From Nemertoderma westbladi (Eukaryota > Animalia > Xenacoelomorpha), in contig JAUCBJ010001825.1 of NCBI GenBank assembly GCA_032718475.1, forward strand, positions 1 to 64,000: a DNA stretch of 64,000 nucleotides, written 5' to 3'. The notes below the pieces were generated by a model. The model worked only from the letters and a program-made list of their open reading frames with translations. It was not told the DNA's origin and did not search any database. Both the position numbers and the translations under genes were made by a program. Every line of letters begins with the position of its first letter. The first letter of the stretch is position 1. Below are positions 2,441 through 27,826 of the stretch, one piece after another.

Positions 2441-5400
2441 CCGCCCTCCCTTCCGTGTTTATATAATTTAAGTTTCTTACAGGTTTTTCTGCCCTCCCTT
2501 CTGTATTTATATAATTTATGTTTCTTACAGGTTTTTCCACCCTCCCTTCCGTGTTTATATAATTTATGTTTCTTACCGGTTTTTCCGCCCTCCCTTCCGT
2601 GTTTATATACTTTATGTTTCTTACAGGTTTTTCCGCCCTCCCTTCTGTGTTTATATAATTTCTGTTTCTTACAGGTTTTTCCGCCCTCCCTTCTGTGTTT
2701 ATATAATTTCTGTTTCTTACAGGTTTTTCCGCCCTCCCTTCTGTGTTTATATAATTTCTGTTTCTTACAGGTTTTTCCGCCCTCCCTTCTGTGTTTATAT
2801 AATTTATGTTTCTTACAGGTTTTTCCGCCCTCCCTTCTGTGTTTATATAATTTCTGTTTCTTACAGGTTTTTCCGCCCTCCCTTCCGTGTTTATATAATT
2901 TATGTTTCTTACAGGTTTTTCCGCCCTCCCTTCCGTGTTTATATAATTTAAGTTTCTTACAGGTTTTTCTGCCATCCCTTCTGTATTTATATAATTTATG
3001 TTTCTTACAGGTTTTTCCACCCTCCCTTCCGTGTTTATATAATTTATGTTTCTTACCGGTTTTTCCGCCCTCCCTTCCGTGTTTATATACTTTATGTTTC
3101 TTACAGGTTTTTCCGCCCGCCCTTCCGTGTTTATATAATTTAAGTTTCTTACAGGTTTTTCCGCCCTCCCTTCTGTATATAATTTATGTTTCTTACAGGT
3201 TTTTCCGCCCTCCTTTCTGTATTTATATAATTTATGTTTCTTGCCGGTTTTTCCGCCCTCCCTTCTGTGTTTATATAATTTCTGTTTCTTACAGGTTTTT
3301 CCGCCCTCCCTCCTGTGTTTATACTGTATAATTGATGTTTCTTACCGGTTTTTCCGCCCTCCCTTCCGTGTTTATATACTTTATGTTTCTTACAGGTTTT
3401 TCCGCCCTCCTTTCTGTATTTATATAATTTATGTTTCTTGCCGGTTTTTCCGCCCTCCCTTCTGTGTTTATATAATTTCTGTTTCTTACAGGTTTTTCCG
3501 CCCTCCCTCCTGTGTTTATACTGTATAATTGATGTTTCTTACCGGTTTTTCCGCCCTCCCTTCTGTATTTATATTTATGTTTCTTACCGGTTTTTCCGCC
3601 CTCCCTTCTGTGTTTATATAATTTATGTTTCTTACAGGTTTTTCCGCCCTCCCTTCTGTGTTTATATTATTTCTGTTTCTTACAGGTTTTTCCGCCCTCC
3701 CTCCTGTGTTTATACTGTATAATTGATGTTTCTTACCGGTTTTTCCGCCCTCCCTTCTGTATTTATATTTATGTTTCTTACCGGTTTTTCCGCCCTCCCT
3801 TCTGTGTTTATATAATTTATGTTTCTTACAGGTTTTTCCGCCCTCCTTTCCGTGTTTATATAATTTAAGTTTCTTACAGGTTTTTCTGCCCTCCCTTCCG
3901 TGTTTATATAATTTATGTTTCTTACAGGTTTTTCCGCCCTCCCTTCCGTGTTTATATACTTGTTGTTTCTTACAGGTTTTTCCGCCCTCCCTTCCGTGTT
4001 TATATACTTGATGTTTCTTACAGGTTTTTCCGCCCGCCCTTCCGTGTTTATATAATTTAAGTTTCTTACAGGTTTTTCCGCCCTCCCTTCTGTACCGTAT
4101 ATAATTTATGTTTCTTACCGGTTTTTCCGCCCTCCCTTCCGTATTTATATAATTTATGTTTCTTACAGGTTTTTCCGCCCTCCCTTCCGTGTTTATATAC
4201 TTGATGTTTCTTACAGGTTTTTCCGCCCGCCCTTCCGTGTTTATATAATTTTAGTTTCTTACAGGTTTTTCCGCCCTCCCTTCTGTATATAATTTATGTT
4301 TCTTACCGGTTTTTCCGCCCTCCCTTCCGTGTTTATATAATTTATGTTTCTTACAGGTTTTTCCGCCCTCCCTTCCGTGTTTATATAATTTAAGTTTCTT
4401 ACAGGTTTTTCCGCCCGCCCTTCTGTATATAATTTATGTTTCTTACAGGTTTTTCCGCCCTCCCTTCTGTGTTTATATACTTTATGTTTCTTAAAGGTTT
4501 TTCCGCCCTCCCTTCTGTGTTTATATAATTTATGTTTCTTACAGGTTTTTCCACCCCCCCCCTTCCGTGTTTATATAATTTAAGTTTCTTACAGGTTTTT
4601 CTGCCCTCCCTTCTGTATTTATATAATTTATGTTTCTTACAGTTTTTTCCGCCCTCCCTTCTGTGTTTATATACTTTATGTTTCTTACAGGTTTTTCCGC
4701 CCGCCCTTCCGTGTTTATATAATTTATGTTTCTTACAGGTTTTTCCACCCTCCCTTCCGTGTTTATATACTTTATGTTTCTTACAGGTTTTTCTGCCCTC
4801 CCTTCTGTATTTATATAATTTATGTTTCTTACAGGTTGTTCCACCCTCCCTTCCGTGTTTATATATTTATGTTTCTTACAGGTTTTTCTGCCCTCCCTTC
4901 TGTATTTATATAATTTATGTTTCTTACAGGTTTTTCCACCCCCCCTTCCGTGTTTATATACTTTATGTTTCTTACAGGTTTTTCTGCCCTCCCTTCTGTA
5001 TTTATATAATTTATGTTTCTTACAGGTTTTTCCACCCTCCCTTCCGTGTTTATATACTTTATGTTTCTTACAGGTTTTTCTGCCCTCCCTTCTGTATTTA
5101 TATAATTTATGTTTCTTACAGGTTTTTCCACCCCCCCTTCCGTGTTTATATACTTTATGTTTCTTACAGGTTTTTCTGCCCTCCCTTCTGTATTTATATA
5201 ATTTATGTTTCTTACAGGTTTTTCCACCCTCCCTTCCGTGTTTATATACTTTATGTTTCTTACAGGTTTTTCTGCCCTCCCTTCTGTATTTATATAATTT
5301 ATGTTTCTTACAGGTTTTTCCACCCTCCCTTCTGTATTTATATAATTTATGTTTCTTACAGGTTTTTCCGCCCTCCCTTCCGTGTTTATATACTTTATGT

Positions 5401-8400
5401 TTCTTACAGGTTTTTCTGCCTTCCCTTCTGTATTTATATAATTTATGTTTCTTACAGGTTTTTCTGCCCTCCCTTCCGTATTTATATAATTTATGTTTCT
5501 TACAGTTTTTTCCGCCCTCCCTTCTGTATTTATATAATTTATGTTTCTTACAGGTTTTTCCACCCTCCCTTCCGTGTTTATATACTTTATGTTTCTTACA
5601 GGTTTTTCTGCCCTCCCTTCTGTATTTATATAATTTATGTTTCTTACAGGTTTTTCCACCCTCCCTTCCGTGTTTATATAATTTATGTTTCTTACAGGTT
5701 TTTCTGCCCTCCCTTCTGTATTTATATAATTTATGTTTCTTACAGGTTTTTCCACCCTCCCTTCCGTGTTTATATACTTTATGTTTCTTACAGGTTTTTC
5801 TGCCCTCCCTTCTGTATTTATATAATTTATGTTTCTTACAGGTTTTTCCACCCCCCCTTCCGTGTTTATATACTTTATGTTTCTTACAGGTTTTTCTGCC
5901 CTCCCTTCTGTATTTATATAATTTATGTTTCTTACAGGTTTTTCCACCCTCCCTTCCGTGTTTATATACTTTATGTTTCTTACAGGTTTTTCTGCCCTCC
6001 CTTCTGTATTTATATAATTTATGTTTCTTACAGGTTGTTCCACCCTCCCTTCCGTGTTTATATAATTTATGTTTCTTACAGGTTTTTCCGCCCTCCCTTC
6101 TGTATTTATATAATTTATGTTTCTTACAGGTTTTTCCGCCCTCCCTTCCGTGTTTATATACTTTATGTTTCTTACAGGTTTTTCTGCCCTCCCTTCTGTA
6201 TTTATATAATTTATGTTTCTTACAGGTTGTTCCACCCTCCCTTCCGTGTTTATATAATTTATGTTTCTTACAGGTTTTTCCGCCCTCCCTTCTGTATTTA
6301 TATAATTTATGTTTCTTACAGGTTTTTCCGCCCTCCCTTCCGTGTTTATATACTTTATGTTTCTTACAGGTTGTTCCACCCTCCCTTCCGTGTTTATATA
6401 ATTTATGTTTCTTACAGGTTTTTCCGCCCTCCCTTCTGTATTTATATAATTTATGTTTCTTACAGGTTTTTCCGCCCTCCCTTCCGTGTTTATATACTTT
6501 ATGTTTCTTACAGGTTGTTCCACCCTCCCTTCCGTGTTTATATAATTTATGTTTCTTACAGGTTTTTCCGCCCTCCCTTCTGTATTTATATAATTTATGT
6601 TTCTTAAAGGTTTTTCCGCCCTCCCTTCTGTATTTATATAATTTATGATTCTTACAGGTTTTTCCGCCCTCCCTTCCGTGTTTATATAATTTATGTTTCT
6701 TACAGGTTTTTCCGCCCTCCCTTCCGTGTTTATATAATTTATGTTTCTTACCGGTTTTTCCGCCCTCCCCTCTGTATTTATATAATTTATGTTTCTTACA
6801 GGTTTTTCCGCCCTCCCTTCCGTGTTTATATACTTTATGTTTCTTACAGGTTTTTCTGCCCTCCCTTCTGTATTTATATAATTTATGTTTCTTACAGGTT
6901 TTTCTGCCCTCCCTTCCGTATTTATATAATTTATGTTTCTTACAGTTTTTTCCGCCCTCCCTTCTGTATTTATATAATTTATGTTTCTTACAGGTTTTTC
7001 CACCATCCCTTCCGTGTTTATATACTTTATGTTTCTTACAGGTTTTTCTGCCCTCCCTTCTGTATTTATATAATTTATGTTTCTTACAGGTTTTTCCACC
7101 ATCCCTTCCGTGTTTATATACTTTATGTTTCTTACAGGTTTTTCCGCCCTCCCTTCTGTATTTATATAATTTATGTTTCTTACAGGTTTTTCCACCATCC
7201 CTTCCGTGTTTATATACTTTATGTTTCTTACAGGTTTTTCTGCCCTCCCTTCTGTATTTATATAATTTATGTTTCTTACAGGTTTTTCCACCCTCCCTTC
7301 CGTGTTTATATAATTTATGTTTCTTACAGGTTTTTCCACCCTCCCTTCCGTGTTTATATACTTTATGTTTCTTACAGGTTTTTCTGCCCTCCCTTCTGTA
7401 TTTATATAATTTATGTTTCTTACAGGTTTTTCCACCCTCCCTTCCGTGTTTATATAATTTATGTTTCTTACAGGTTTTTCTGCCCTCCCTTCTGTATTTA
7501 TATAATTTATGTTTCTTACAGGTTTTTCCACCCTCCCTTCCGTGTTTATATAATTTATGTTTCTTACAGGTTTTTCCGCCCTCCCTTCTGTATTTATATA
7601 ATTTATGTTTCTTACAGGTTTTTCCACCCTCCATTCCGTGTTTATATAATTTATGTTTCTTACAGATTTTTCCACCCTCCCTTCTGTGTTTATATACTTT
7701 ATGTTTCTTACAGGTTTTTCCACCCTCCCTTCTGTGTTTATATACTTTATGTTTTTACAGGTTTTTCCGCCCTCCCTTCTGTGTTTATATACTTTATGTT
7801 TCTTACAGGTTTTTCCGCCCTCCCTTCTGTGTTTATATACTTTATGTTTTACAGGTTTTTCCGCCCTCCCTTCTGTGTTTATATACTTTATGTTTCTTAC
7901 AGGTTTTTCCACCCTCCCTTCTGTGTTTATATACTTTATGTTTTTACAGGTTTTTCCGCCCTCCCTTCTGTGTTTATATACTTTATGTTTCTTACAGGTT
8001 TTTCCGCCCTCCCTTCTGTGTTTATATACTTTATGTTTCTTGCAGGTTTTTCCACCCTCCCTTTCGTGTTTATATACTTTGTTTCTTACAGGTTTTTCCG
8101 CCCTCCCTTCTGTATTTATATAATTTATGTTTCTTACAGGTTTTTCCGCCCTCCCTTCCGTGTTTATATAATTTATGTTTCTTACCGGTTTTTCCGCCCT
8201 CCCTTCTGTATATAATTTATGTTTCTTACAGGTTTTTCCGCCCTCCCTTCTGTATATAATTTATGTTTCTTACAGGTTTTTCCACCCTCCCTTCTGTGTT
8301 TATATAATTTAAGTTTCTTACAAGTTTTTCTGCCCTCCCTTCCGTATTTATATAATTTATGTTTCTTATCGGTTTTTCCGCCCTCCCTTCCGTGTTTATA

Positions 8401-11400
8401 TAATTTATGTTTCTTACAGGTTTTTCCGTCCTCCCTTCCGTGTTTATATAATTTATGTTTCTTACAGGTTTTTCCGCCCTCCCTTCTGTGTTTATATAAT
8501 TTATGTTTCTTACAGGTTTTTCCGCCCTCCCTTCCGTGTTTATATAATTTATGTTTCTTACAGATTTTTCCGCCCTCCCTTCTGTGTTTATATAATTTAT
8601 GTTTCTTACAGGTTTTTCCGCCCTCCCTTCCGTGTTTATATAATTTATGTTTCTTACAGGTTTTTCCGCCCTCCCTTCTGTGTTATATAATTTATGTTTC
8701 TTACAGGTTTTTCCGCCCTCCCTTCTGTGTTATATAATTTATGTTTCTTACAGGTTTTTCCGCCCGCCCTTCCGTGTTTATATAATTTATGTTTCTTACC
8801 GGTTTTTCTGCCCTCCCTTCTATATTTATATAATTTATGTTTCTTACAGGGTTTTCCGCCTTCCCTTCCGTGTTTATATAATTTATGTTTCTTACAGGTT
8901 TTTCCGCCCTCCCTTCTGTGTTTATATAATTTATGTTTCTTACAGGTTTTTCCGCCCTCCCTTCCGTGTTTATATACTTTATGTTTCTTACAGGTTTTTC
9001 CGCCCGCCCTTCCGTGTTTATATAATTTATGTTTCTTACCGGTTTTTCTGCCCTTCCTTCTATATTTATATAATTTATGTTTCTTACAGGTTTTTCCGCC
9101 CTCCCTTCCGTGTTTATATAATTTATGTTTCTTACAGGTTTTTCCGCCCTCCCTTCTGTGTTTATATAATTTATGTTTCTTACAGGTTTTTCCGCCCTCC
9201 CTTCCGTGTTTATATAATTTATGTTTCTTACAGGTTTTTCCGCCCTCCCTTCTGTGTTATATAATTTATGTTTCTTACAGGTTTTTCCGCCCGCCCTTCC
9301 GTGTTTATATAATTTATGTTTCTTACCGGTTTTTCTGCCCTCCCTTCTATATTTATATAATTTATGTTTCTTACAGGTTTTTCCGCCATCCCTTCCGTGT
9401 TTATATAATTTATGTTTCTTACAGGTTTTTCCGCCCTCCCTTCTGTGTTTATATAATTTATGTTTCTTACAGGTTTTTCCGCCCTCCCTTCCGTGTTTAT
9501 ATAATTTATGTTTCTTACAGGTTTTTCCGCCCTCCCTTCTGTGTTTATATAATTTATGTTTCTTACAGGTTTTTCCGCCCTCCCTTCCGTGTTTATATAA
9601 TTTATGTTTCTTACAGGTTTTTCCGCCCTCCCTTCCGTGTTTATATAATTTATGTTTCTTACAGGTTTTTCCGCCCTCCCTTCTGTGTTTATATAATTTA
9701 TGTTTCTTACAGGTTTTTCCGCCCTCCCTTCCGTGTTTATATAATTTATGTTTCTTACAGGTTTTTCCGCCCTCCCTTCTGTGTTATATAATTTATGTTT
9801 CTTACAGGTTTTTCCGCCCTCCCTTCTGTGTTATATAATTTATGTTTCTTACAGGTTTTTCCGCCCGCCCTTCCGTGTTTATATAATTTATGTTTCTTAC
9901 CGGTTTTTCTGCCCTCCCTTCTATATTTATATAATTTATGTTTCTTACAGGTTTTTCCGCCCTCCCTTCCGTGTTTATATAATTTATGTTTCTTACAGGT
10001 TTTTCCGCCCTCCCTTCTGTGTTTATATAATTTATGTTTCTTACAGGTTTTTCCGCCCTCCCTTCCGTGTTTATATACTTTATGTTTCTTACAGGTTTTT
10101 CCGCCCTCCCTTCCGTGTTTATATAATTTATGTTTCTTACCGGTTTTTCTGCCCTCCCTTCTATATTTATATAATTTATGTTTCTTACAGGTTTTTCCGC
10201 CCTCCCTTCCGTGTTTATATAATTTATGTTTCTTACAGGTTTTTCCGCCCTCCCTTCTGTGTTTATATAATTTATGTTTCTTACAGGTTTTTCCGCCCTC
10301 CCTTCCGTGTTTATATAATTTATGTTTCTTACAGGTTTTTCTGGCCTCCCTTCTATATTTATATAATTTATGTTTCTTACAGGTTTTTCCGCCCTCCCTT
10401 CTGTGTTTATATAATTTATGTTTCTTACAGGTTTTTCCGTCCTCCCTTCTGTGTTTATATAATTTATGTTTCTTACAGGTTTTTCCGCCCTCCCTTCCGT
10501 GTTTATATAATTTATGTTTCTTACAGGTTTTTCCGCCCTCCCTTCTGTGTTATATAATTTATGTTTCTTACAGGTTTTTCCGCCCGCCCTTCCGTGTTTA
10601 TATAATTTATGTTTCTTACCGGTTTTTCTGCCCTCCCTTCTATATTTATATAATTTATGTTTCTTACAGGTTTTTCCGCCCTCCCTTCCGTGTTTATATA
10701 ATTTATGTTTCTTACAGGTTTTTCCGCCCTCCCTTCTGTGTTTATATAATTTATGTTTCTTACAGGTTTTTCCGCCCTCCCTTCCGTGTTTATATACTTT
10801 ATGTTTCTTACAGGTTTTTCCGCCCGCCCTTCCGTGTTTATATAATTTATGTTTCTTACCGGTTTTTCTGCCCTCCCTTCTATATTTATATAATTTATGT
10901 TTCTTACAGGTTTTTCCGCCCTCCCTTCCGTGTTTATATAATTTATGTTTCTTACAGGTTTTTCCGCCCTCTCTTCCGTGTTTATATAATTTATGTTTCT
11001 TACAGGTTTTTCCGCCCTCCCTTCCGTGTTTATATAATTTAAGTTTCTTACAGGTTTTTCTGCCCTCCCTTCTGTATTTATATAATTTATGTTTCTTACA
11101 GGTTTTTCCACCCTCCCTTCCGTGTTTATATAATTTATGTTTCTTACCGGTTTTTCCGCCCTCCCTTCCGTGTTTATATACTTTATGTTTCTTACAGGTT
11201 TTTCCGCCCGCCCTTCCGTGTTTATATAATTTAAGTTTCTTACAGGTTTTTCCGCCCTCCCTTCTGTATATAATTTATGTTTCTTACAGGTTTTTCCGCC
11301 CTCCTTTCTGTATTTATATAATTTATGTTTCTTGCCGGTTTTTCCGCCCTCCCTTCTGTGTTTATATAATTTCTGTTTCTTACAGGTTTTTCCGCCCTCC

Positions 11401-14400
11401 CTCCTGTGTTTATACTGTATAATTGATGTTTCTTACCGGTTTTTCCGCCCTCCCTTCCGTGTTTATATACTTTATGTTTCTTACAGGTTTTTCCGCCCTC
11501 CTTTCTGTATTTATATAATTTATGTTTCTTGCCGGTTTTTCCGCCCTCCCTTCTGTGTTTATATAATTTCTGTTTCTTACAGGTTTTTCCGCCCTCCCTC
11601 CTGTGTTTATACTGTATAATTGATGTTTCTTACCGGTTTTTCCGCCCTCCCTTCTGTATTTATATTTATGTTTCTTACCGGTTTTTCCGCCCTCCCTTCT
11701 GTGTTTATATAATTTATGTTTCTTACAGGTTTTTCCGCCCTCCCTTCTGTGTTTATATAATTTCTGTTTCTTACAGGTTTTTCCGCCCTCCCTCCTGTGT
11801 TTATACTGTATAATTGATGTTTCTTACCGGTTTTTCCGCCCTCCCTTCTGTATTTATATTTATGTTTCTTACCGGTTTTTCCGCCCTCCCTTCTGTGTTT
11901 ATATAATTTATGTTTCTTACAGGTTTTTCCGCCCTCCTTTCCGTGTTTATATAATTTAAGTTTCTTACAGGTTTTTCTGCCCTCCCTTCCGTGTTTATAT
12001 AATTTATGTTTCTTACAGGTTTTTCCGCCCTCCCTTCCGTGTTTATATACTTGTTGTTTCTTACAGGTTTTTCCGCCCTCCCTTCCGTGTTTATATACTT
12101 GATGTTTCTTACAGGTTTTTCCGCCCGCCCTTCCGTGTTTATATAATTTAAGTTTCTTACAGGTTTTTCCGCCCTCCCTTCTGTACCGTATATAATTTAT
12201 GTTTCTTACCGGTTTTTCCGCCCTCCCTTCCGTATTTATATAATTTATGTTTCTTGCAGGTTTTTCCACCCTCCCTTTCGTGTTTATATACTTTGTTTCT
12301 TACAGGTTTTTCCGCCCTCCCTTCTGTATTTATATAATTTATGTTTCTTACAGGTTTTTCCGCCCTCCCTTCCGTGTTTATATAATTTATGTTTCTTACC
12401 GGTTTTTCCGCCCTCCCTTCTGTATATAATTTATGTTTCTTACAGGTTTTTCCGCCCTCCCTTCTGTATATAATTTATGTTTCTTACAGGTTTTTCCACC
12501 CTCCCTTCTGTGTTTATATAATTTAAGTTTCTTACAAGTTTTTCTGCCCTCCCTTCCGTATTTATATAATTTATGTTTCTTATCGGTTTTTCCGCCCTCC
12601 CTTCCGTGTTTATATAATTTATGTTTCTTACAGGTTTTTCCGTCCTCCCTTCCGTGTTTATATAATTTATGTTTCTTACAGGTTTTTCCGCCCTCCCTTC
12701 TGTGTTTATATAATTTATGTTTCTTACAGGTTTTTCCGCCCTCCCTTCCGTGTTTATATAATTTATGTTTCTTACAGATTTTTCCGCCCTCCCTTCTGTG
12801 TTTATATAATTTATGTTTCTTACAGGTTTTTCCGCCCTCCCTTCCGTGTTTATATAATTTATGTTTCTTACAGGTTTTTCCGCCCTCCCTTCTGTGTTAT
12901 ATAATTTATGTTTCTTACAGGTTTTTCCGCCCTCCCTTCTGTGTTATATAATTTATGTTTCTTACAGGTTTTTCCGCCCGCCCTTCCGTGTTTATATAAT
13001 TTATGTTTCTTACCGGTTTTTCTGCCCTCCCTTCTATATTTATATAATTTATGTTTCTTACAGGGTTTTCCGCCTTCCCTTCCGTGTTTATATAATTTAT
13101 GTTTCTTACAGGTTTTTCCGCCCTCCCTTCTGTGTTTATATAATTTATGTTTCTTACAGGTTTTTCCGCCCTCCCTTCCGTGTTTATATACTTTATGTTT
13201 CTTACAGGTTTTTCCGCCCGCCCTTCCGTGTTTATATAATTTATGTTTCTTACCGGTTTTTCTGCCCTTCCTTCTATATTTATATAATTTATGTTTCTTA
13301 CAGGTTTTTCCGCCCTCCCTTCCGTGTTTATATAATTTATGTTTCTTACAGGTTTTTCCGCCCTCCCTTCTGTGTTTATATAATTTATGTTTCTTACAGG
13401 TTTTTCCGCCCTCCCTTCCGTGTTTATATAATTTATGTTTCTTACAGGTTTTTCCGCCCTCCCTTCTGTGTTATATAATTTATGTTTCTTACAGGTTTTT
13501 CCGCCCGCCCTTCCGTGTTTATATAATTTATGTTTCTTACCGGTTTTTCTGCCCTCCCTTCTATATTTATATAATTTATGTTTCTTACAGGTTTTTCCGC
13601 CATCCCTTCCGTGTTTATATAATTTATGTTTCTTACAGGTTTTTCCGCCCTCCCTTCTGTGTTTATATAATTTATGTTTCTTACAGGTTTTTCCGCCCTC
13701 CCTTCCGTGTTTATATAATTTATGTTTCTTACAGGTTTTTCCGCCCTCCCTTCTGTGTTTATATAATTTATGTTTCTTACAGGTTTTTCCGCCCTCCCTT
13801 CCGTGTTTATATAATTTATGTTTCTTACAGGTTTTTCCGCCCTCCCTTCCGTGTTTATATAATTTATGTTTCTTACAGGTTTTTCCGCCCTCCCTTCTGT
13901 GTTTATATAATTTATGTTTCTTACAGGTTTTTCCGCCCTCCCTTCCGTGTTTATATAATTTATGTTTCTTACAGGTTTTTCCGCCCTCCCTTCTGTGTTA
14001 TATAATTTATGTTTCTTACAGGTTTTTCCGCCCTCCCTTCTGTGTTATATAATTTATGTTTCTTACAGGTTTTTCCGCCCGCCCTTCCGTGTTTATATAA
14101 TTTATGTTTCTTACCGGTTTTTCTGCCCTCCCTTCTATATTTATATAATTTATGTTTCTTACAGGTTTTTCCGCCCTCCCTTCCGTGTTTATATAATTTA
14201 TGTTTCTTACAGGTTTTTCCGCCCTCCCTTCTGTGTTTATATAATTTATGTTTCTTACAGGTTTTTCCGCCCTCCCTTCCGTGTTTATATACTTTATGTT
14301 TCTTACAGGTTTTTCCGCCCTCCCTTCCGTGTTTATATAATTTATGTTTCTTACCGGTTTTTCTGCCCTCCCTTCTATATTTATATAATTTATGTTTCTT

Positions 14401-17400
14401 ACAGGTTTTTCCGCCCTCCCTTCCGTGTTTATATAATTTATGTTTCTTACAGGTTTTTCCGCCCTCCCTTCTGTGTTTATATAATTTATGTTTCTTACAG
14501 GTTTTTCCGCCCTCCCTTCCGTGTTTATATAATTTATGTTTCTTACAGGTTTTTCTGGCCTCCCTTCTATATTTATATAATTTATGTTTCTTACAGGTTT
14601 TTCCGCCCTCCCTTCTGTGTTTATATAATTTATGTTTCTTACAGGTTTTTCCGTCCTCCCTTCTGTGTTTATATAATTTATGTTTCTTACAGGTTTTTCC
14701 GCCCTCCCTTCCGTGTTTATATAATTTATGTTTCTTACAGGTTTTTCCGCCCTCCCTTCTGTGTTATATAATTTATGTTTCTTACAGGTTTTTCCGCCCG
14801 CCCTTCCGTGTTTATATAATTTATGTTTCTTACCGGTTTTTCTGCCCTCCCTTCTATATTTATATAATTTATGTTTCTTACAGGTTTTTCCGCCCTCCCT
14901 TCCGTGTTTATATAATTTATGTTTCTTACAGGTTTTTCCGCCCTCCCTTCTGTGTTTATATAATTTATGTTTCTTACAGGTTTTTCCGCCCTCCCTTCCG
15001 TGTTTATATACTTTATGTTTCTTACAGGTTTTTCCGCCCGCCCTTCCGTGTTTATATAATTTATGTTTCTTACCGGTTTTTCTGCCCTCCCTTCTATATT
15101 TATATAATTTATGTTTCTTACAGGTTTTTCCGCCCTCCCTTCCGTGTTTATATAATTTATGTTTCTTACAGGTTTTTCCGCCCTCTCTTCCGTGTTTATA
15201 TAATTTATGTTTCTTACAGGTTTTTCCGCCCTCCCTTCCGTGTTTATATAATTTAAGTTTCTTACAGGTTTTTCTGCCCTCCCTTCTGTATTTATATAAT
15301 TTATGTTTCTTACAGGTTTTTCCACCCTCCCTTCCGTGTTTATATAATTTATGTTTCTTACCGGTTTTTCCGCCCTCCCTTCCGTGTTTATATACTTTAT
15401 GTTTCTTACAGGTTTTTCCGCCCGCCCTTCCGTGTTTATATAATTTAAGTTTCTTACAGGTTTTTCCGCCCTCCCTTCTGTATATAATTTATGTTTCTTA
15501 CAGGTTTTTCCGCCCTCCTTTCTGTATTTATATAATTTATGTTTCTTGCCGGTTTTTCCGCCCTCCCTTCTGTGTTTATATAATTTCTGTTTCTTACAGG
15601 TTTTTCCGCCCTCCCTCCTGTGTTTATACTGTATAATTGATGTTTCTTACCGGTTTTTCCGCCCTCCCTTCCGTGTTTATATACTTTATGTTTCTTACAG
15701 GTTTTTCCGCCCTCCTTTCTGTATTTATATAATTTATGTTTCTTGCCGGTTTTTCCGCCCTCCCTTCTGTGTTTATATAATTTCTGTTTCTTACAGGTTT
15801 TTCCGCCCTCCCTCCTGTGTTTATACTGTATAATTGATGTTTCTTACCGGTTTTTCCGCCCTCCCTTCTGTATTTATATTTATGTTTCTTACCGGTTTTT
15901 CCGCCCTCCCTTCTGTGTTTATATAATTTATGTTTCTTACAGGTTTTTCCGCCCTCCCTTCTGTGTTTATATAATTTCTGTTTCTTACAGGTTTTTCCGC
16001 CCTCCCTCCTGTGTTTATACTGTATAATTGATGTTTCTTACCGGTTTTTCCGCCCTCCCTTCTGTATTTATATTTATGTTTCTTACCGGTTTTTCCGCCC
16101 TCCCTTCTGTGTTTATATAATTTATGTTTCTTACAGGTTTTTCCGCCCTCCTTTCCGTGTTTATATAATTTAAGTTTCTTACAGGTTTTTCTGCCCTCCC
16201 TTCCGTGTTTATATAATTTATGTTTCTTACAGGTTTTTCCGCCCTCCCTTCCGTGTTTATATACTTGTTGTTTCTTACAGGTTTTTCCGCCCTCCCTTCC
16301 GTGTTTATATACTTGATGTTTCTTACAGGTTTTTCCGCCCGCCCTTCCGTGTTTATATAATTTAAGTTTCTTACAGGTTTTTCCGCCCTCCCTTCTGTAC
16401 CGTATATAATTTATGTTTCTTACCGGTTTTTCCGCCCTCCCTTCCGTATTTATATAATTTATGTTTCTTACAGGTTTTTCCGCCCTCCCTTCCGTGTTTA
16501 TATACTTGATGTTTCTTACAGGTTTTTCCGCCCGCCCTTCCGTGTTTATATAATTTTAGTTTCTTACAGGTTTTTCCGCCCTCCCTTCTGTATATAATTT
16601 ATGTTTCTTACCGGTTTTTCCGCCCTCCCTTCCGTGTTTATATAATTTATGTTTCTTACAGGTTTTTCCGCCCTCCCTTCCGTGTTTATATACTTTATGT
16701 TTCTTACAGGTTTTTCCGCCCTCCCTTCTGTATTTATATAATTTATGTTTCTTACAGGTTTTTCCACCATCCCTTCCGTGTTTATATACTTTATGTTTCT
16801 TACAGGTTTTTCTGCCCTCCCTTCTGTATTTATATAATTTATGTTTCTTACAGGTTTTTCCACCCTCCCTTCCGTGTTTATATAATTTATGTTTCTTACA
16901 GGTTTTTCCACCCTCCCTTCCGTGTTTATATACTTTATGTTTCTTACAGGTTTTTCTGCCCTCCCTTCTGTATTTATATAATTTATGTTTCTTACAGGTT
17001 TTTCCACCCTCCCTTCCGTGTTTATATAATTTATGTTTCTTACAGGTTTTTCTGCCCTCCCTTCTGTATTTATATAATTTATGTTTCTTACAGGTTTTTC
17101 CACCCTCCCTTCCGTGTTTATATAATTTATGTTTCTTACAGGTTTTTCCGCCCTCCCTTCTGTATTTATATAATTTATGTTTCTTACAGGTTTTTCCACC
17201 CTCCATTCCGTGTTTATATAATTTATGTTTCTTACAGGTTTTTCCACCCTCCCTTCTGTGTTTATATACTTTATGTTTCTTACAGGTTTTTCCACCCTCC
17301 CTTCTGTGTTTATATACTTTATGTTTTTACAGGTTTTTCCGCCCTCCCTTCTGTGTTTATATACTTTATGTTTCTTACAGGTTTTTCCGCCCTCCCTTCT

Positions 17401-20400
17401 GTGTTTATATACTTTATGTTTTACAGGTTTTTCCGCCCTCCCTTCTGTGTTTATATACTTTATGTTTCTTACAGGTTTTTCCACCCTCCCTTCTGTGTTT
17501 ATATACTTTATGTTTTTACAGGTTTTTCCGCCCTCCCTTCTGTGTTTATATACTTTATGTTTCTTACAGGTTTTTCCGCCCTCCCTTCTGTGTTTATATA
17601 CTTTATGTTTCTTGCAGGTTTTTCCACCCCCCCTTTCGTGTTTATATACTTTGTTTCTTACAGGTTTTTCCGCCCTCCCTTCTGTATTTATATAATTTAT
17701 GTTTCTTACAGGTTTTTCCGCCCTCCCTTCCGTGTTTATATAATTTATGTTTCTTGCCGGTTTTTCCGCCCTCCCTTCTGTATATAATTTATGTTTCTTA
17801 CCGGTTTTTCCGCCCTCCCTTCTGTATATAATTTATGTTTCTTACAGGTTTTTCCACCCTCCCTTCTGTGTTTATATAATTTAAGTTTCTTACAAGTTTT
17901 TCTGCCCCCCCTTCCGTATTTATATAATTTATGTTTCTTATCGGTTTTTCCGCCCTCCCTTCCGTGTTTATATAATTTATGTTTCTTACAGGTTTTTCCG
18001 TCCTCCCTTCCGTGTTTATATAATTTATGTTTCTTACAGGTTTTTCCGCCCTCCCTTCTGTGTTTATATAATTTATGTTTCTTACAGGTTTTTCCGCCCT
18101 CCCTTCCGTGTTTATATAATTTATGTTTCTTACAGGTTTTTCCGCCCTCCCTTCTGTGTTTATATAATTTATGTTTCTTACAGGTTTTTCCGCCCTCCCT
18201 TCCGTGTTTATATAATTTATGTTTCTTACAGGTTTTTCCGCCCTCCCTTCTGTGTTTATATAATTTATGTTTCTTACAGGTTTTTCCGCCCTCCCTTCCG
18301 TGTTTATATAATTTATGTTTCTTACAGGTTTTTCCGCCCTCCCTTCTGTGTTTATATAATTTATGTTTCTTACAGGTTTTTCCGCCCTCCCTTCCGTGTT
18401 TATATAATTTATGTTTCTTACAGGTTTTTCCGCCCTCCCTTCTGTGTTATATAATTTATGTTTCTTACAGGTTTTTCCGCCCTCCCTTCTGTGTTATATA
18501 ATTTATGTTTCTTACAGGTTTTTCCGCCCGCCCTTCCGTGTTTATATAATTTATGTTTCTTACCGGTTTTTCTGCCCTCCCTTCTATATTTAGATAATTT
18601 ATGTTTCTTACAGGTTTTTCCGCCTTCCCTTCCGTGTTTATATAATTTATGTTTCTTACAGGTTTTTCCGCCCTCCCTTCTGTGTTTATATAATTTATGT
18701 TTCTTACAGGTTTTTCCGCCCGGCCTTCCGTGTTTATATAATTTATGTTTCTTACCGGTTTTTCTGCCCTTCCTTCTATATTTATATAATTTATGTTTCT
18801 TACAGGTTTTTCCGCCCTCCCTTCCGTGTTTATATAATTTATGTTTCTTACAGGTTTTTCCGCCCACCCTTCTGTGTTTATATAATTTATGTTTCTTACA
18901 GGTTTTTCCGCCCTCCCTTCCGTGTTTATATAATTTATGTTTCTTACAGGTTTTTCCGCCCTCCCTTCTGTGTTATATAATTTATGTTTCTTACAGGTTT
19001 TTCCGCCCGCCCTTCCGTGTTTATATAATTTATGTTTCTTACAGGTTTTTCCGCCCTCCCTTCTGTGTTATATAATTTATGTTTCTTACCGGTTTTTCTG
19101 CCCTCCCTTCTATATTTATATAATTTATGTTTCTTACAGGTTTTTCCGCCCTCCCTTCCGTGTTTATACAATTTATGTTTCTTACAGGTTTTTCCGCCCT
19201 CCCTTCCGTGTTTATATAATTTATGTTTCTTACAGGTTTTTCCGCCCTCCCTTCCGTGTTTATATAATTTATGTTTCTTTACCGGTTTTTCGCCCTCCCT
19301 TCTGTATTTATATAATTTATGTTTCTTACAGGTTTTTCCGCCCTCCCTTCCGTGTTTATATAATTTATGTTTCTTACAGGTTTTTCCGCCCTCCCTTCTG
19401 TGTTATATAATTTATGTTTCTTACAGGTTTTTCCGCCCTCCCTTCTGTGTTATATAATTTATGTTTCTTACAGGTTTTTCCGCCCGCCCTTCCGTGTTTA
19501 TATAATTTATGTTTCTTACCGGTTTTTCTGCCCTCCCTTCTATATTTATATAATTTATGTTTCTTACAGGTTTTTCCGCCCTCCCTTCCGTGTTTATATA
19601 ATTTATGTTTCTTACAGGTTTTTCCGCCCTCCCTTCTGTATTTATATAATTTATGTTTCTTACAGGTTTTTCCACCATCCCTTCCGTGTTTATATACTTT
19701 ATGTTTCTTACAGGTTTTTCTGCCCTCCCTTCTGTATTTATATAATTTATGTTTCTTACAGGTTTTTCCACCATCCCTTCCGTGTTTATATACTTTATGT
19801 TTCTTACAGGTTTTTCCGCCCTCCCTTCTGTATTTATATAATTTATGTTTCTTACAGGTTTTTCCACCATCCCTTCCGTGTTTATATACTTTATGTTTCT
19901 TACAGGTTTTTCTGCCCTCCCTTCTGTATTTATATAATTTATGTTTCTTACAGGTTTTTCCACCCTCCCTTCCGTGTTTATATAATTTATGTTTCTTACA
20001 GGTTTTTCCACCCTCCCTTCCGTGTTTATATACTTTATGTTTCTTACAGGTTTTTCTGCCCTCCCTTCTGTATTTATATAATTTATGTTTCTTACAGGTT
20101 TTTCCACCCTCCCTTCCGTGTTTATATAATTTATGTTTCTTACAGGTTTTTCTGCCCTCCCTTCTGTATTTATATAATTTATGTTTCTTACAGGTTTTTC
20201 CACCCTCCCTTCCGTGTTTATATAATTTATGTTTCTTACAGGTTTTTCCGCCCTCCCTTCTGTATTTATATAATTTATGTTTCTTACAGGTTTTTCCACC
20301 CTCCATTCCGTGTTTATATAATTTATGTTTCTTACAGGTTTTTCCACCCTCCCTTCTGTGTTTATATACTTTATGTTTCTTACAGGTTTTTCCACCCTCC

Positions 20401-23400
20401 CTTCTGTGTTTATATACTTTATGTTTTTACAGGTTTTTCCGCCCTCCCTTCTGTGTTTATATACTTTATGTTTCTTACAGGTTTTTCCGCCCTCCCTTCT
20501 GTGTTTATATACTTTATGTTTTACAGGTTTTTCCGCCCTCCCTTCTGTGTTTATATACTTTATGTTTCTTACAGGTTTTTCCACCCTCCCTTCTGTGTTT
20601 ATATACTTTATGTTTTTACAGGTTTTTCCGCCCTCCCTTCTGTGTTTATATACTTTATGTTTCTTACAGGTTTTTCCGCCCTCCCTTCTGTGTTTATATA
20701 CTTTATGTTTCTTGCAGGTTTTTCCACCCCCCCTTTCGTGTTTATATACTTTGTTTCTTACAGGTTTTTCCGCCCTCCCTTCTGTATTTATATAATTTAT
20801 GTTTCTTACAGGTTTTTCCGCCCTCCCTTCCGTGTTTATATAATTTATGTTTCTTACAGGTTTTTCCACCCTCCCTTCTGTGTTTATATACTTTATGTTT
20901 CTTACAGGTTTTTCCACCCTCCCTTCTGTGTTTATATACTTTATGTTTTTACAGGTTTTTCCGCCCTCCCTTCTGTGTTTATATACTTTATGTTTCTTAC
21001 AGGTTTTTCCGCCCTCCCTTCTGTGTTTATATACTTTATGTTTTACAGGTTTTTCCGCCCTCCCTTCTGTGTTTATATACTTTATGTTTCTTACAGGTTT
21101 TTCCACCCTCCCTTCTGTGTTTATATACTTTATGTTTTTACAGGTTTTTCCGCCCTCCCTTCTGTGTTTATATACTTTATGTTTCTTACAGGTTTTTCCG
21201 CCCTCCCTTCTGTGTTTATATACTTTATGTTTCTTGCAGGTTTTTCCACCCCCCCTTTCGTGTTTATATACTTTGTTTCTTACAGGTTTTTCCGCCCTCC
21301 CTTCTGTATTTATATAATTTATGTTTCTTACAGGTTTTTCCGCCCTCCCTTCTGTATTTATATAATTTATGTTTCTTACAGGTTTTTCCACCATCCCTTC
21401 CGTGTTTATATACTTTATGTTTCTTACAGGTTTTTCTGCCCTCCCTTCTGTATTTATATAATTTATGTTTCTTACAGGTTTTTCCACCCTCCCTTCCGTG
21501 TTTATATAATTTATGTTTCTTACAGGTTTTTCCACCCTCCCTTCCGTGTTTATATACTTTATGTTTCTTACAGGTTTTTCTGCCCTCCCTTCTGTATTTA
21601 TATAATTTATGTTTCTTACAGGTTTTTCCACCCTCCCTTCCGTGTTTATATAATTTATGTTTCTTACAGGTTTTTCTGCCCTCCCTTCTGTATTTATATA
21701 ATTTATGTTTCTTACAGGTTTTTCCACCCTCCCTTCCGTGTTTATATAATTTATGTTTCTTACAGGTTTTTCCGCCCTCCCTTCTGTATTTATATAATTT
21801 ATGTTTCTTACAGGTTTTTCCACCCTCCATTCCGTGTTTATATAATTTATGTTTCTTACAGGTTTTTCCACCCTCCCTTCTGTGTTTATATACTTTATGT
21901 TTCTTACAGGTTTTTCCACCCTCCCTTCTGTGTTTATATACTTTATGTTTTTACAGGTTTTTCCGCCCTCCCTTCTGTGTTTATATACTTTATGTTTCTT
22001 ACAGGTTTTTCCGCCCTCCCTTCTGTGTTTATATACTTTATGTTTTACAGGTTTTTCCGCCCTCCCTTCTGTGTTTATATACTTTATGTTTCTTACAGGT
22101 TTTTCCACCCTCCCTTCTGTGTTTATATACTTTATGTTTTTACAGGTTTTTCCGCCCTCCCTTCTGTGTTTATATACTTTATGTTTCTTACAGGTTTTTC
22201 CGCCCTCCCTTCTGTGTTTATATACTTTATGTTTCTTGCAGGTTTTTCCACCCCCCCTTTCGTGTTTATATACTTTGTTTCTTACAGGTTTTTCCGCCCT
22301 CCCTTCTGTATTTATATAATTTATGTTTCTTACAGGTTTTTCCGCCCTCCCTTCCGTGTTTATATAATTTATGTTTCTTGCCGGTTTTTCCGCCCTCCCT
22401 TCTGTATATAATTTATGTTTCTTACCGGTTTTTCCGCCCTCCCTTCTATATATAATTTATGTTTCTTACAGGTTTTTCCACCCTCCCTTCTGTGTTTATA
22501 TAATTTAAGTTTCTTACAAGTTTTTCTGCCCCCCCTTCCGTATTTATATAATTTATGTTTCTTATCGGTTTTTCCGCCCTCCCTTCCGTGTTTATATAAT
22601 TTATGTTTCTTACAGGTTTTTCCGTCCTCCCTTCCGTGTTTATATAATTTATGTTTCTTACAGGTTTTTCCGCCCTCCCTTCTGTGTTTATATAATTTAT
22701 GTTTCTTACAGGTTTTTCCGCCCTCCCTTCCGTGTTTATATAATTTATGTTTCTTACAGGTTTTTCCGCCCTCCCTTCTGTGTTTATATAATTTATGTTT
22801 CTTACAGGTTTTTCCGCCCTCCCTTCCGTGTTTATATAATTTATGTTTCTTACAGGTTTTTCCGCCCTCCCTTCTGTGTTTATATAATTTATGTTTCTTA
22901 CAGGTTTTTCCGCCCTCCCTTCCGTGTTTATATAATTTATGTTTCTTACAGGTTTTTCCGCCCTCCCTTCTGTGTTTATATAATTTATGTTTCTTACAGG
23001 TTTTTCCGCCCTCCCTTCCGTGTTTATATAATTTATGTTTCTTACAGGTTTTTCCGCCCTCCCTTCTGTGTTATATAATTTATGTTTCTTACAGGTTTTT
23101 CCGCCCTCCCTTCTGTGTTATATAATTTATGTTTCTTACAGGTTTTTCCGCCCGCCCTTCCGTGTTTATATAATTTATGTTTCTTACCGGTTTTTCTGCC
23201 CTCCCTTCTATATTTAGATAATTTATGTTTCTTACAGGTTTTTCCGCCCTCCCTTCCGTGTTTATATAATTTATGTTTCTTACAGGTTTTTCCGCCCTCC
23301 CTTCTGTGTTATATAATTTATGTTTCTTACAGGTTTTTCCGCCCTCCCTTCTGTGTTTATATAATTTATGTTTCTTACAGGTTTTTCCGCCCGCCCTTCC

Positions 23401-25993
23401 GTGTTTATATAATTTATGTTTCTTACCGGTTTTTCTGCCCTTCCTTCTATATTTATATAATTTATGTTTCTTACAGGTTTTTCCGCCCTCCCTTCCGTGT
23501 TTATATAATTTATGTTTCTTACAGGTTTTTCCGCCCTCCCTTCTGTGTTTATATAATTTATGTTTCTTACAGGTTTTTCCGCCCTCCCTTCCGTGTTTAT
23601 ATAATTTATGTTTCTTACAGGTTTTTCCGCCCTCCCTTCTGTGTTATATAATTTATGTTTCTTACAGGTTTTTCCGCCCGCCCTTCCGTGTTTATATAAT
23701 TTATGTTTCTTACAGGTTTTTCCGCCCTCCCTTCTGTGTTATATAATTTATGTTTCTTACCGGTTTTTCTGCCCTCCCTTCTATATTTATATAATTTATG
23801 TTTCTTACAGGTTTTTCCGCCCTCCCTTCCGTGTTTATATAATTTATGTTTCTTACAGGTTTTTCCGCCCTCCCTTCCGTGTTTATATAATTTATGTTTC
23901 TTACAGGTTTTTCCGCCCTCCCTTCCGTGTTTATATAATTTATGTTTCTTACAGGTTTTTCCGCCCGCCCTTCCGTGTTTATATAATTTATGTTTCTTAC
24001 CGGTTTTTCTGCCCTCCCTTCTATATTTAGATAATTTATGTTTCTTACAGGTTTTTCCGCCCTCCCTTCCGTGTTTATATAATTTATGTTTCTTACAGGT
24101 TTTTCCGCCCTCCCTTCTGTGTTTATATAATTTATGTTTCTTACAGGTTTTTCCGCCCGCCCTTCCGTGTTTATATAATTTATGTTTCTTACCGGTTTTT
24201 CTGCCCTTCCTTCTATATTTATATAATTTATGTTTCTTACAGGTTTTTCCGCCCTCCCTTCCGTGTTTATATAATTTATGTTTCTTACAGGTTTTTCCGC
24301 CCTCCCTTCTGTGTTTATATAATTTATGTTTCTTACAGGTTTTTCCGCCCTCCCTTCCGTGTTTATATAATTTATGTTTCTTACAGGTTTTTCCGCCCTC
24401 CCTTCTGTGTTATATAATTTATGTTTCTTACAGGTTTTTCCGCCCGCCCTTCCGTGTTTATATAATTTATGTTTCTTACAGGTTTTTCCGCCCTCCCTTC
24501 TGTGTTATATAATTTATGTTTCTTACCGGTTTTTCTGCCCTCCCTTCTATATTTATATAATTTATGTTTCTTACAGGTTTTTCCGCCCTCCCTTCCGTGT
24601 TTATATAATTTATGTTTCTTACAGGTTTTTCCGCCCTCCCTTCCGTGTTTATATAATTTATGTTTCTTACAGGTTTTTCCGCCCTCCCTTCCGTGTTTAT
24701 ATAATTTATGTTTCTTTACCGGTTTTTCGCCCTCCCTTCTGTATTTATATAATTTATGTTTCTTACAGGTTTTTCCGCCCTCCCTTCCGTGTTTATATAA
24801 TTTATGTTTCTTACAGGTTTTTCCGCCCTCCCTTCTGTGTTATATAATTTATGTTTCTTACAGGTTTTTCCGCCCTCCCTTCTGTGTTATATAATTTATG
24901 TTTCTTACAGGTTTTTCCGCCCGCCCTTCCGTGTTTATATAATTTATGTTTCTTACCGGTTTTTCTGCCCTCCCTTCTATATTTATATAATTTATGTTTC
25001 TTACAGGTTTTTCCGCCCTCCCTTCCGTGTTTATATAATTTATGTTTCTTACAGGTTTTTCCGCCCTCCCTTCTGTGTTTATATAATTTATGTTTCTTAC
25101 AGGTTTTTCCGCCCTCCCTTCTGTGTTATATAATTTATGTTTCTTACAGGTTTTTCCGCCCGCCCTTCCGTGTTTATATAATTTATGTTTCTTACCGGTT
25201 TTTCTGCCCTCCCTTCTATATTTATATAATTTATGTTTCTTACAGGTTTTTCCGCCCTCCCTTCCGTGTTTATATAATTTATGTTTCTTACAGGTTTTTC
25301 CGCCCTCCCTTCTGTGTTTATATAATTTATGTTTCTTACAGGTTTTTCCGCCCTCCCTTCCGTGTTTATATACTTTATGTTTCTTACAGGTTTTTCCGCC
25401 CGCCCTTCCGTGTTTATATAATTTATGTTTCTTACCGGTTTTTCTGCCCTCCCTTCTATATTTATATAATTTATGTTTCTTACAGGTTTTTCCGCCCTCC
25501 CTTCCGTGTTTATATAATTTATGTTTCTTACAGGTTTTTCCGCCCTCCCTTCCGTGTTTATATAATTTATGTTTCTTACCGGTTTTTCCGCCCTCCCTTC
25601 CGTGTTTATATAATTTATGTTTCTTACAGGTTTTTCCGCCCTCCCTTCCGTGTTTATATAATTTATGTTTCTTACAGGTTTTTCCGCCCTCCCTTCTGTG
25701 TTTATATAATTTCTGTTTCTTACCGGTTTTTCCGCCCTCCCTTCTGTGTTTATATAATTTATGTTTCTTACAGGTTTTTCCACCCTCCCTTCCGTGTTTA
25801 TATACTTTATGTTTCTTACAGGTTTTTCTGCCCTCCCTTCTGTATTTATATAATTTATGTTTCTTACAGGTTTTTCCGCCCTCCCTTCTGTGTTTATATA
25901 ATTTATGTTTCTTACCGGTTTTTCCGCCCTCCCTTCTGTGTTTATATAATTTATGTTTCTTACAGGTTTTTCCGCCCTCCCTTCCGTGTTTAT
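2441..25993. repeat. 48-bp tandem satellite, ~490 copies; consensus ATAATTTATGTTTCTTACAG-GTTTTTCCGCCCTCCCTTCYGTGTTTAT
   Basis: Continuous tandem repetition is visible directly, with 16-aa periodicity in all ORF-track translations. Recurrent variants include ACAGG/ACCGG, CCGCC/CCACC/CTGCC, TAAT/TACT and small indels. Confidence 0.98.
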
Positions 25994-26156
25994 CTACTGG
26001 TTTACTTTATCAACGGTACTTATCGTACTGTTTATACGGATTCCTTACTATATTTATCGCGGATGGGGTTTCGTTTTATTTGATTTCGACCATCTTGCCT
26101 GTTTGATAGTGACTGCTGCAGTTTTAGGGGCTCCTGCTGGCAAAGATTTTCTACAG
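25966..26156 (+). CDS. GPCAT: GPCAT/Gpc1 (DUF2838)-like acyltransferase, internal exon A (starts phase 1, ends phase 0)
   Basis: TTCTTACAG acceptor and CAG|GTGTGA donor. Encodes (x)FSALPSVFIYWFTLSTVLIVLFIRIPYYIYRGWGFVLFDFDHLACLIVTAAVLGAPAGKDFLQ, matching the family pattern P...Y/F...R..YY...W.(Y/F).L.DF. Confidence 0.8.
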
Positions 26157-27665: not shown

Positions 27666-27826
27666 TGATCCCGTTTGGAATATATATTGCTCACTACATC
27701 CTCTACACATTCTTCGTTTACGTTCTAATTAAACCAGATTTGGATCAACTCACATCGTTCCGTTTACTGACAGACCCCCCTGGACTCATCACTAAAGCCA
27801 TCAGCATTTGCTCAGATAGATTTTGG
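27666..27826 (+). CDS. GPCAT: GPCAT/Gpc1-like exon C (phase 1 to phase 0)
   Basis: TTTCAG acceptor. Encodes VIPFGIYIAHYILYTFFVYVLIKPDLDQLTSFRLLTD...SDRFW, matching the family P...Y......Y and TS(Y/F)R.L motifs. The donor TGG|GTTCGT was chosen for phase compatibility, so the exon end is less certain. Confidence 0.78.

What the first reader, a model, noticed from the sequence alone, without database searches (positions are those of the whole stretch)
2441..26156. A 23.5-kb satellite built from ~490 copies of a gene's own splice acceptor
Seen: the 48-bp unit is the last 20 nt of an intron (ATAATTTATGTTTCTTACAG) plus the first 28 nt of GPCAT-like exon A (GTTTTTCCGCCCTCCCTTCCGTGTTTAT). The last unit runs seamlessly into unique coding sequence at 25994. 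In the gene's frame, splicing to most upstream copies reads FSALPSVFI then TAA, a stop after about 10 codons, so only the last acceptor is clearly productive. The downstream exons still keep open frames and compatible phases. Inference: the satellite was born by tandem amplification of an intron/exon junction. The gene must either ignore hundreds of near-identical decoy acceptors (for example by exon definition, since the decoys lack a strong donor), be tuned by array length through NMD-coupled mis-splicing, or have been recently silenced.
Basis: partly seen in the sequence, partly recalled or inferred. Interest (0 to 1): 0.85.

Follow-up and report, generated by a model that had tools for sequence, protein, structure and literature searches.

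The report
Giant splice-acceptor "mirage" in GPCAT intron
A 48-base piece spanning a splice-acceptor signal and the first codons of an exon in an animal lipid-enzyme gene is repeated about 490 times over at least 23.5 kb; the cell likely uses only the last copy, which would make this an oversized example of a repeat type already described in lancelets ("mirage").

Summary
The array is real: 2441-25993, period 48, about 492 copies, 415 with the acceptor AG, 89 identical to the last copy. Four downstream exons join in frame to 255 codons of a divergent animal GPCAT/DUF2838 protein. No AG lies between 25966 and 26107, so exon A must start inside the array; only 1 of 443 array AGs (25964-65) reads open to the exon's donor. 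The left end is an LTR-like element, so the array probably continues outside the window. Best reading: a pre-existing intron/exon junction was amplified, and the gene likely still splices to the last copy by exon definition. This kind is known: amphioxus "mirage" minisatellites (PMC3087553, PMC3902484), human F7 IVS7 (PMC1557585). The scan had already noted many such arrays on other DNA of this genome and in other animals. Only the size exceeds the papers I read. No RNA run, genome or upstream exon was available, so splicing, expression and copy number are untested. Rivals: gene silenced or weakened; intron born from an exonic duplication; array of start codons.

The parts
2441..25993 (+). 48-bp tandem array, about 492 copies; unit = 20 nt acceptor-like part ending in CAG plus the first 28 nt of exon A; first unit truncated by 6 nt
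25946..25965 (+). last copy of the acceptor part; its AG (25964-65) is the only one of 443 AGs in the array that reads open in the gene frame to the donor after 26156; holds an in-frame ATG at 25953
25966..26156 (+). exon A (191 nt, starts in phase 1, ends in phase 0); first 28 nt belong to the last repeat unit; PF10998 positions 21-75
26427..26646 (+). exon B (220 nt); PF10998 positions 82-109
27666..27826 (+). exon C (161 nt)
30145..30342 (+). exon D (198 nt to the stop codon)
8030..16469 (+). exact tandem duplication of 88 units (4226 identical bases) inside the array
1210..2440 (+). LTR-like element (TG...CA ends, purine-rich tract just before it, two AATAAA at 2154 and 2261) that abuts the first, truncated unit; likely the 3' LTR of a retrotransposon inserted into the array, same sense as the gene
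31522..32685 (-). solo copy of the same LTR-like element with a 5-bp target duplication; defines the element's ends (91% identical over 804 bases)

Best explanation
The array is a head-to-tail repeat of the 48 bases around the start of exon A of a GPCAT-like gene, likely amplified from a pre-existing intron/exon junction into the upstream intron, and the gene is predicted still to splice to the last copy because only that copy is followed by a full exon with a donor. Steps: (1) shown: the unit is the last 20 nt before the only productive AG plus 28 nt of exon. (2) Inferred: one local duplication was multiplied by unequal exchange, with blocks of up to 88 units copied at once, and the copies decayed, mainly at CpGs. 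(3) Inferred: an LTR retrotransposon later landed inside a unit, so more array probably lies upstream. (4) Inferred: in an intron of more than 25.9 kb the splice sites are paired across the exon; the last AG lies 191 nt from the donor, the next 287 nt, and only 5 of 415 lie within 500 nt. (5) Shown on sequence: any slip to an upstream AG that uses exon A's donor meets a premature stop; inferred: such RNA is removed by nonsense-mediated decay. The array is most likely tolerated clutter, not a regulator.
For: No AG between 25966 and 26107 although the conserved R..Y....W...DF stretch is coded before 26107. 1 of 443 AGs open to the donor. The joined exons score 210 bits against a profile of 28 homologues built without the window protein; the alignment starts ungapped inside the last unit, at profile position 96. 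The 18 nt before the AG are as intron-like as only 3 of 724 windows of this gene's own coding sequence (crude model from 3 acceptors); reading them as codons adds nothing (792 of 1000 shuffles score as well). 99 of 107 homologues have 15 or more residues upstream of exon A's first codon, and in a model of homologue P0011 these form a confident helix, residues 2-29, so an upstream exon is expected. Three of the six commonest variants are CpG transitions away from the exon's sequence. None of 1835 GT sites in the array has A at +4 after a purine or G at +5. Four exons are open over 768 nt and keep 12 of 16 residues invariant in 20 homologues. Published mirages splice normally (PMC3087553 section 16; PMC3902484 passage). 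In human genes with long introns, sites closest across the exon are favoured (PMC9225289).
Against: The homology of the nine codons inside the last unit is weak alone: 95 of 1000 base shuffles and 78 of 1000 residue shuffles score as well. The upstream exon is not in the window (six-frame profile search), so that the array lies in an intron is inferred. For 3' sites PMC9225289 reports only a reduced upstream preference under exon definition, and in human data. 400 junctions read CAG|GTTTTT, which scores 6 on a crude U1 match against 5, 6.5 and 7 for the gene's three donors, so donor-like sites are not wholly absent. The protein is a long branch (3.71 against a median of 1.07, quick tree) and has lost 4 of 16 invariant and 15 of 28 near-invariant residues. 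The intron position is not shared with relative L041.
Confidence: 0.7

Rival explanations
1. Same origin, but the gene is now silenced or strongly weakened: by mis-splicing into the 414 decoys, by heterochromatin on the array, or by early polyadenylation in the same-sense LTR upstream.
For: 414 AG-bearing decoys, 88 identical to the true site; a same-sense LTR-like element with two AATAAA hexamers sits upstream of the array; CpG decay suggests methylation; the protein is divergent. Gene disruption by same-sense intronic LTR elements is recalled, not from a call.
Against: No stop or frameshift in 255 codons while units differ from the exon copy by 2.3 of 48 positions on average; published mirages do not disturb splicing.
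Confidence: 0.13
2. Intron gain in the act (Rogers model): the unit was 16 codons of continuous exon holding a CAG|GT proto-splice site; its duplication created the intron, with the first copy as donor and the last as acceptor.
For: The unit is 48 nt (in frame) and has CAG|GT at its junction; 98 of 492 units carry C at -17, which turns the stop into a sense codon so that the 'intron part' reads as hydrophobic codons; relative L041 has no intron at the homologous position; the mechanism has been shown experimentally (PMC3265369, abstract).
Against: The 'intron part' does not score as coding (792 of 1000 shuffles as good) and is T-rich like the gene's other acceptors (3 of 724). The gene's other introns, where L041 covers them, do not match L041's either, so the missing match says little. 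The donor would have to be the weak GTTTTT.
Confidence: 0.08
3. The unit is the gene's start-codon region, not an acceptor: translation begins at ATG 25953 and the array is a run of 14-codon upstream mini-frames, perhaps transcribed from the LTR.
For: ATG 25953 is in frame with exon A, directly after the stop; 448 of 492 units keep the ATG.
Against: It would leave 4 residues before the glycine where 99 of 107 homologues have 15 or more, dropping a confident first helix; the ATG sits in a typical T-rich stretch ending in CAG; an in-frame ATG in 20 nt is not rare by chance (inference).
Confidence: 0.04
4. The array is functional: its length tunes output through NMD-coupled mis-splicing, or the CAG|GT junctions act as recursive splice points that remove the intron stepwise.
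For: All 414 decoys lead to stops when paired with exon A's donor; each intact junction is an AG followed at once by GT.
Against: No sign of selection on the decoys: 77 of 492 lost the AG, spread along the array without a trend (38-48 of 49 intact per block); the regenerated donor would lack +3 to +5 matches; like arrays sit in unrelated genes in published cases.
Confidence: 0.05

Closest known systems
Amphioxus 'mirage' minisatellites: globin BflGb6 (acceptor side) and BflGb9, Adh3, troponin C, PGBD5. Seen: PMC3087553 passages and section 16; PMC3902484 passages; the Adh3 paper PMC117041 was not held; supplements not read.
   Same: Tandem unit made of an intron's 3' end plus the next exon's 5' part (as in BflGb6); unit size in the quoted range (10-72 bp for Adh3); many but not all copies keep the splice signal; the terminal copy is the authentic junction.
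   Different: About 492 copies over at least 23.5 kb against 3-7 copies for the globin and PGBD5 cases; higher-order blocks of up to 88 units; cut by an LTR-like element; normal splicing and length polymorphism are reported there and untested here.
Human F7 intron 7 (IVS7) 37-bp minisatellite. Seen: PMC1557585 abstract and outline.
   Same: Repeat whose end unit spans the exon/intron boundary, leaving identical pseudo-sites that are normally silent.
   Different: Donor side there, where 5'-to-3' scanning picks the first site; here the authentic acceptor is the last of the series, so that rule cannot explain the choice.
[quoted passage not shown]
   Same: A duplication that includes AG|GT or an intron/exon boundary.
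   Different: Those are single duplications that made a new intron; here no new intron is shown and the upstream part of the unit looks intronic.
GPCAT / Gpc1 family (Pfam PF10998, DUF2838). Seen: PMC5122774 passages.
   Same: Profile match over about 250 residues; best named relatives are animal proteins, 30-34% identical.
   Different: Divergent: long branch, several conserved residues changed; N-terminal exon outside the window; activity untested.

Membership tests
mirage minisatellite | Tandem unit spans an exon/intron boundary with its splice signal | tested here: met
   unit = 20 nt ending in CAG plus 28 nt of exon A; upstream part intron-like, 3 of 724
mirage minisatellite | The end copy is the authentic exon edge | tested here: met
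   no AG 25966-26107; only AG 25964-65 of 443 is open to the donor; from sequence, no RNA
mirage minisatellite | Extra copies lie in the adjoining intron | tested here: inconclusive
   upstream exon not in the window; expected from homologues
mirage minisatellite | Many but not all copies keep the splice dinucleotide | tested here: met
   415 of 492 keep AG
mirage minisatellite | Normal splicing is undisturbed | not testable with these tools
   no run was listed
mirage minisatellite | Length instability between alleles or cells | not testable with these tools
   one haplotype only; an exact 4226-base internal duplication fits recent turnover or an assembly error
GPCAT / DUF2838 | PF10998 domain and family-wide homology | tested here: met
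   exons A and B hit PF10998 at E 2e-4 and 3e-4, each under the 25.2-bit cut-off alone; joined exons 210 bits on a 28-homologue profile
GPCAT / DUF2838 | Acylates glycerophosphocholine | not testable with these tools
   12 of 16 invariant residues kept; no assay
Rogers-type intron gain by duplication | Unit holds an AG|GT proto-splice site | tested here: met
   400 junctions read CAG|GTTTTT
Rogers-type intron gain by duplication | Unit was wholly exonic | tested here: inconclusive
   no coding signal in the 20-nt part (792 of 1000), but the test is weak in a poorly conserved helix
Rogers-type intron gain by duplication | Close orthologues lack the intron | tested here: inconclusive
   only a distant relative (L041) gave exon structure; it shares none of the positions it covers
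LTR retrotransposon (element at 1210-2440) | TG...CA ends, short target duplication, purine tract before the 3' LTR | tested here: met
   ends and 5-bp duplication seen on the solo copy 31522-32685; purine-rich tract at 1201-1209
LTR retrotransposon (element at 1210-2440) | Internal gag/pol coding region | tested here: inconclusive
   1-1209: the longest plus-strand frame has no Pfam hit, no tblastx match to the rest of the window; the rest lies outside

The most novel reading that the evidence does not exclude
This intron was itself made by the satellite: a 16-codon exon segment with a CAG|GT site was amplified about 500-fold, by a process that in this lineage seeds giant arrays specifically at splice signals, and the spliceosome now treats the whole array as one new intron, choosing 1 acceptor out of 415. 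That would be intron birth and intron gigantism by one mechanism, caught in a living gene.
Probability: 0.08. Interest if true: 0.75.

Novelty: new member of a known kind. Interest (0 to 1): 0.32.

Why it matters
If the gene is expressed, it is a clean natural test of 3' splice-site choice: 89 copies are identical over 20 intronic and 28 exonic bases, so branch point, pyrimidine tract and the first codons cannot be what marks the true site; only the downstream exon and its donor differ. That makes exon definition directly testable in a non-model animal at a scale about 70 times the copy numbers in the papers read here (492 against at most 7). The locus is not special on its own: earlier, unchecked notes list many such arrays in the same genome, so the open question is why exon edges seed giant satellites in this lineage, which needs a genome-wide count and not one window.

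Tried and rejected
No whole genome is held, so I could not look for the upstream exon, the other end of the LTR-like element, paralogues or other arrays of this unit. No RNA holder was listed for 25994-27900; no reads were laid; this is no evidence on expression. A word-based protein search with exon B found nothing; the full HMMER search found 310 relatives; a second word search with alignment A1, in which exon A was misaligned, gave 21 proteins and no close orthologue. The unit pattern had 0 matches in metagenome contigs. Of 80 related loci only L041 showed animal-type exon structure. Look-ups of earlier findings by place and by sequence (unit plus exon; LTR) were empty. Rejected: exon A starting downstream of the array (no AG); the array as a coding repeat (only 1 of 443 AGs reads open into exon A; the long frames stop at 26083 and 26106); selective loss of AG near the true site (the neighbouring copy has lost it, but 77 of 491 have, and there is no trend along the array); an older satellite recruited from nearby (best match elsewhere in the window 28 of 48; not testable genome-wide). 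The tree is the quick version and places the protein only loosely among animal rows; I did not identify the organism. Paper searches for larger published cases and for such arrays in acoel genome papers (listings only) found none; the library lacks most subscription papers, and the Adh3 paper was not held.
Full report
Observation. Tandem Repeats Finder gives an array at 2441-25993 with period 48, 492.5 copies and 92% matches. Segmenting backwards from 25965 gives 492 junction copies; 404 units are 48 nt, the rest 42-53 nt. 415 keep the AG, 77 have lost it, mostly by CAG to CCG, and 89 are identical to the last copy over 20 upstream and 28 downstream bases. Units differ from the last copy by 2.3 positions on average. 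There are 79 distinct units, arranged in repeated blocks; the largest is an exact tandem copy of 88 units, 4226 identical bases. That block could be recent unequal exchange or an assembly error; no reads were available to tell.

The gene. Exons at 25966-26156, 26427-26646, 27666-27826 and 30145-30342 have AG and GT ends, compatible phases, and give 255 codons and a stop. Exons A and B hit Pfam PF10998 (DUF2838) at profile positions 21-75 and 82-109, each below the curated cut-off alone; C and D have no Pfam hit. DUF2838 is the domain of yeast Gpc1/GPCAT (PMC5122774 passages). A search with exon B found 310 relatives; the closest named ones are animal proteins (lancelet, brittle star, acorn worm, ribbon worm, molluscs) at 30-34% identity to the joined exons. 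The joined exons score 210 bits on a profile of 28 homologues built without them. The protein is divergent: 12 of 16 invariant and 13 of 28 near-invariant residues of 20 homologues are kept, and it is the longest branch of a quick tree, loosely placed among animal rows.

Where exon A starts. The homology of the nine codons inside the last unit is suggestive only: they align without gaps and add 3.8 bits, but 95 of 1000 base shuffles and 78 of 1000 residue shuffles do as well. The stronger argument is mechanical. After the AG at 25964-65 the next AG is at 26108, beyond the conserved R..Y....W...DF stretch. With a canonical acceptor, exon A must begin in the array. Of 443 AGs in the array only the last reads open in the gene's frame to the donor after 26156. 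Of the 414 upstream AG-bearing junctions, 271 stop after 9 codons and 143 later, none reaching the donor.

Is the 20-nt part intron? It holds an in-frame stop followed by codons for a hydrophobic stretch, an in-frame ATG at 25953, and ends in CAG followed by GT. That allows two other readings: a wholly exonic 16-codon duplication that made a new intron, and a repeat of the start codon. Against both, the 18 bases before the AG are as intron-like as only 3 of 724 windows of this T-rich coding sequence, by a crude model from the gene's three other acceptors, and as codons they score no better than shuffles (792 of 1000). Against the start-codon reading, 99 of 107 homologues have 15 or more residues upstream (107 of the 123 proteins of 250 residues or more covered the needed part of the profile), which form a confident helix in a model of homologue P0011 (residues 2-29, mean pLDDT 83.7). 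No such exon is in the window. For the exonic reading, 98 of 492 units have a variant that removes the stop and relative L041 reads straight through the homologous position; but L041's two introns do not match the window gene's positions either, so this lineage's introns are not conserved enough to decide.

Direction and history. The commonest variants are C to T at exon position 20 (252 units), G to A at 23 (110), A to C at -17 (98), G to A at 9 (74), A to C at -2 (73) and C to T at 8 (72). Three of the six are transitions at the unit's two exonic CpGs, and the changes at 8 and 9 never occur together in 404 units, as expected for decay of methylated CpG (established knowledge). The exon keeps both CpGs, so it likely holds the ancestral state. 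The window outside the array shows little CpG depletion (ratios 0.65-1.1), so methylation is not shown. No relative of the unit occurs elsewhere in the window.

The left end. Bases 1642-2440 match 31522-32312 in reverse at 91%. The second copy is a 1164-base element with TG...CA ends and a 5-base target duplication; the left copy spans 1210-2440 and follows a purine-rich tract. It looks like the 3' LTR of a retrotransposon in the gene's sense. The first unit begins six bases into its exon part, directly at the LTR end, so the element likely landed inside an existing array, which then continues outside the window. The intron would exceed 25.9 kb, against 270, 1019 and 2318 bases for the next three. 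The left LTR has two AATAAA hexamers; the array has none.

Mechanism. Sequence around the true acceptor cannot mark it, since 88 decoys are identical. What differs is downstream: a complete exon with a donor 191 nt away. The neighbouring copy has lost its AG; the next AGs would give exons of 287, 335, 383 and 479 nt, and all others more than 500. None of 1835 GT sites in the array has the +4 A or +5 G of the usual donor (consensus recalled), although the junction itself, CAG|GTTTTT in 400 copies, scores like the gene's own weak donors on a crude U1 match. In human genes with long introns the sites closest across the exon are favoured; for 3' sites the paper reports a reduced upstream preference, not a clean reversal (PMC9225289, passages and section 9). 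I therefore infer exon definition, with slips removed by NMD. None of this is shown: no run was listed. The open frames over 768 nt argue, modestly, that the gene has stayed under selection while the array diverged.

What is known. Tandem repeats of an exon/intron boundary are described in amphioxus as mirages: globin BflGb6 repeats an intron's 3' end plus the exon's 5' part in 6 and 3 units, many but not all with the splice signal, without disturbing splicing (PMC3087553, section 16); Adh3, troponin C and PGBD5 are like cases (PMC3902484, passages). Human F7 has a donor-side case (PMC1557585, abstract). I found the mirage paper by search before opening the scan's notes. Those notes, unchecked, list many such arrays in this genome, some larger (600, 700, 840, 1300 copies) and some with transcripts reported to use the true site, and others in annelid, sea urchin, clam, abalone and comb jelly genomes. 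They are not evidence for this locus, but they mean the scan has found this kind before on other DNA. My paper searches found no published array of hundreds of copies; supplements of the mirage papers were not read and may list larger cases.

Verdict. Observation confirmed; origin by junction amplification likely; function most likely none, with the last acceptor used (0.70). Rivals: silenced or weakened gene 0.13, intron gain 0.08, regulatory or recursive use 0.05, start-codon array 0.04. New member of a known kind, unusual in size. Interest 0.32.

Noticed in passing
window 54142-64000: 71-bp satellite, 138.8 copies, running off the window. On the minus strand 97 units carry a donor-like TAC|GTGAGG; it may be a donor-side mirage of a gene beyond the window.
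   Followed up: partly
window 39557-53586: BEL/Pao retrotransposon on the minus strand with 574-bp LTRs 99.1% identical and a 5-base target duplication; Pao peptidase, DUF1759, integrase and DUF5641 hits. Three extra long frames downstream of the integrase (40848-41738, 41739-42941, 42773-43471) have no Pfam hit.
   Followed up: partly
window 36820-37572 (-): 250-codon open frame without apparent introns: hydrophobic stretch, acidic helical middle, cysteine-rich end; no Pfam hit below E 0.1.
   Followed up: partly
window 31096-33383: Element with 427-bp inverted ends, 95.5% identical, that holds the solo LTR at 31522-32685; looks like a non-autonomous DNA transposon.
   Followed up: partly
window 33390-33886 and 34936-36121: 63-bp array (8 copies) and 25-bp array (47 copies); no link to an exon was examined.
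   Followed up: no
window 29100-29411 (-): Frame in the third intron that resembles a non-LTR reverse transcriptase fragment (resemblance recalled); no Pfam hit at E 0.01.
   Followed up: partly
window 26037-26560: The GPCAT-like protein has changed residues that are invariant or nearly so in 20 homologues (for example C66, Y67, N70, N107, S119 in P0011 numbering) while keeping H112, H123, H174 and D64; its activity may differ.
   Followed up: partly
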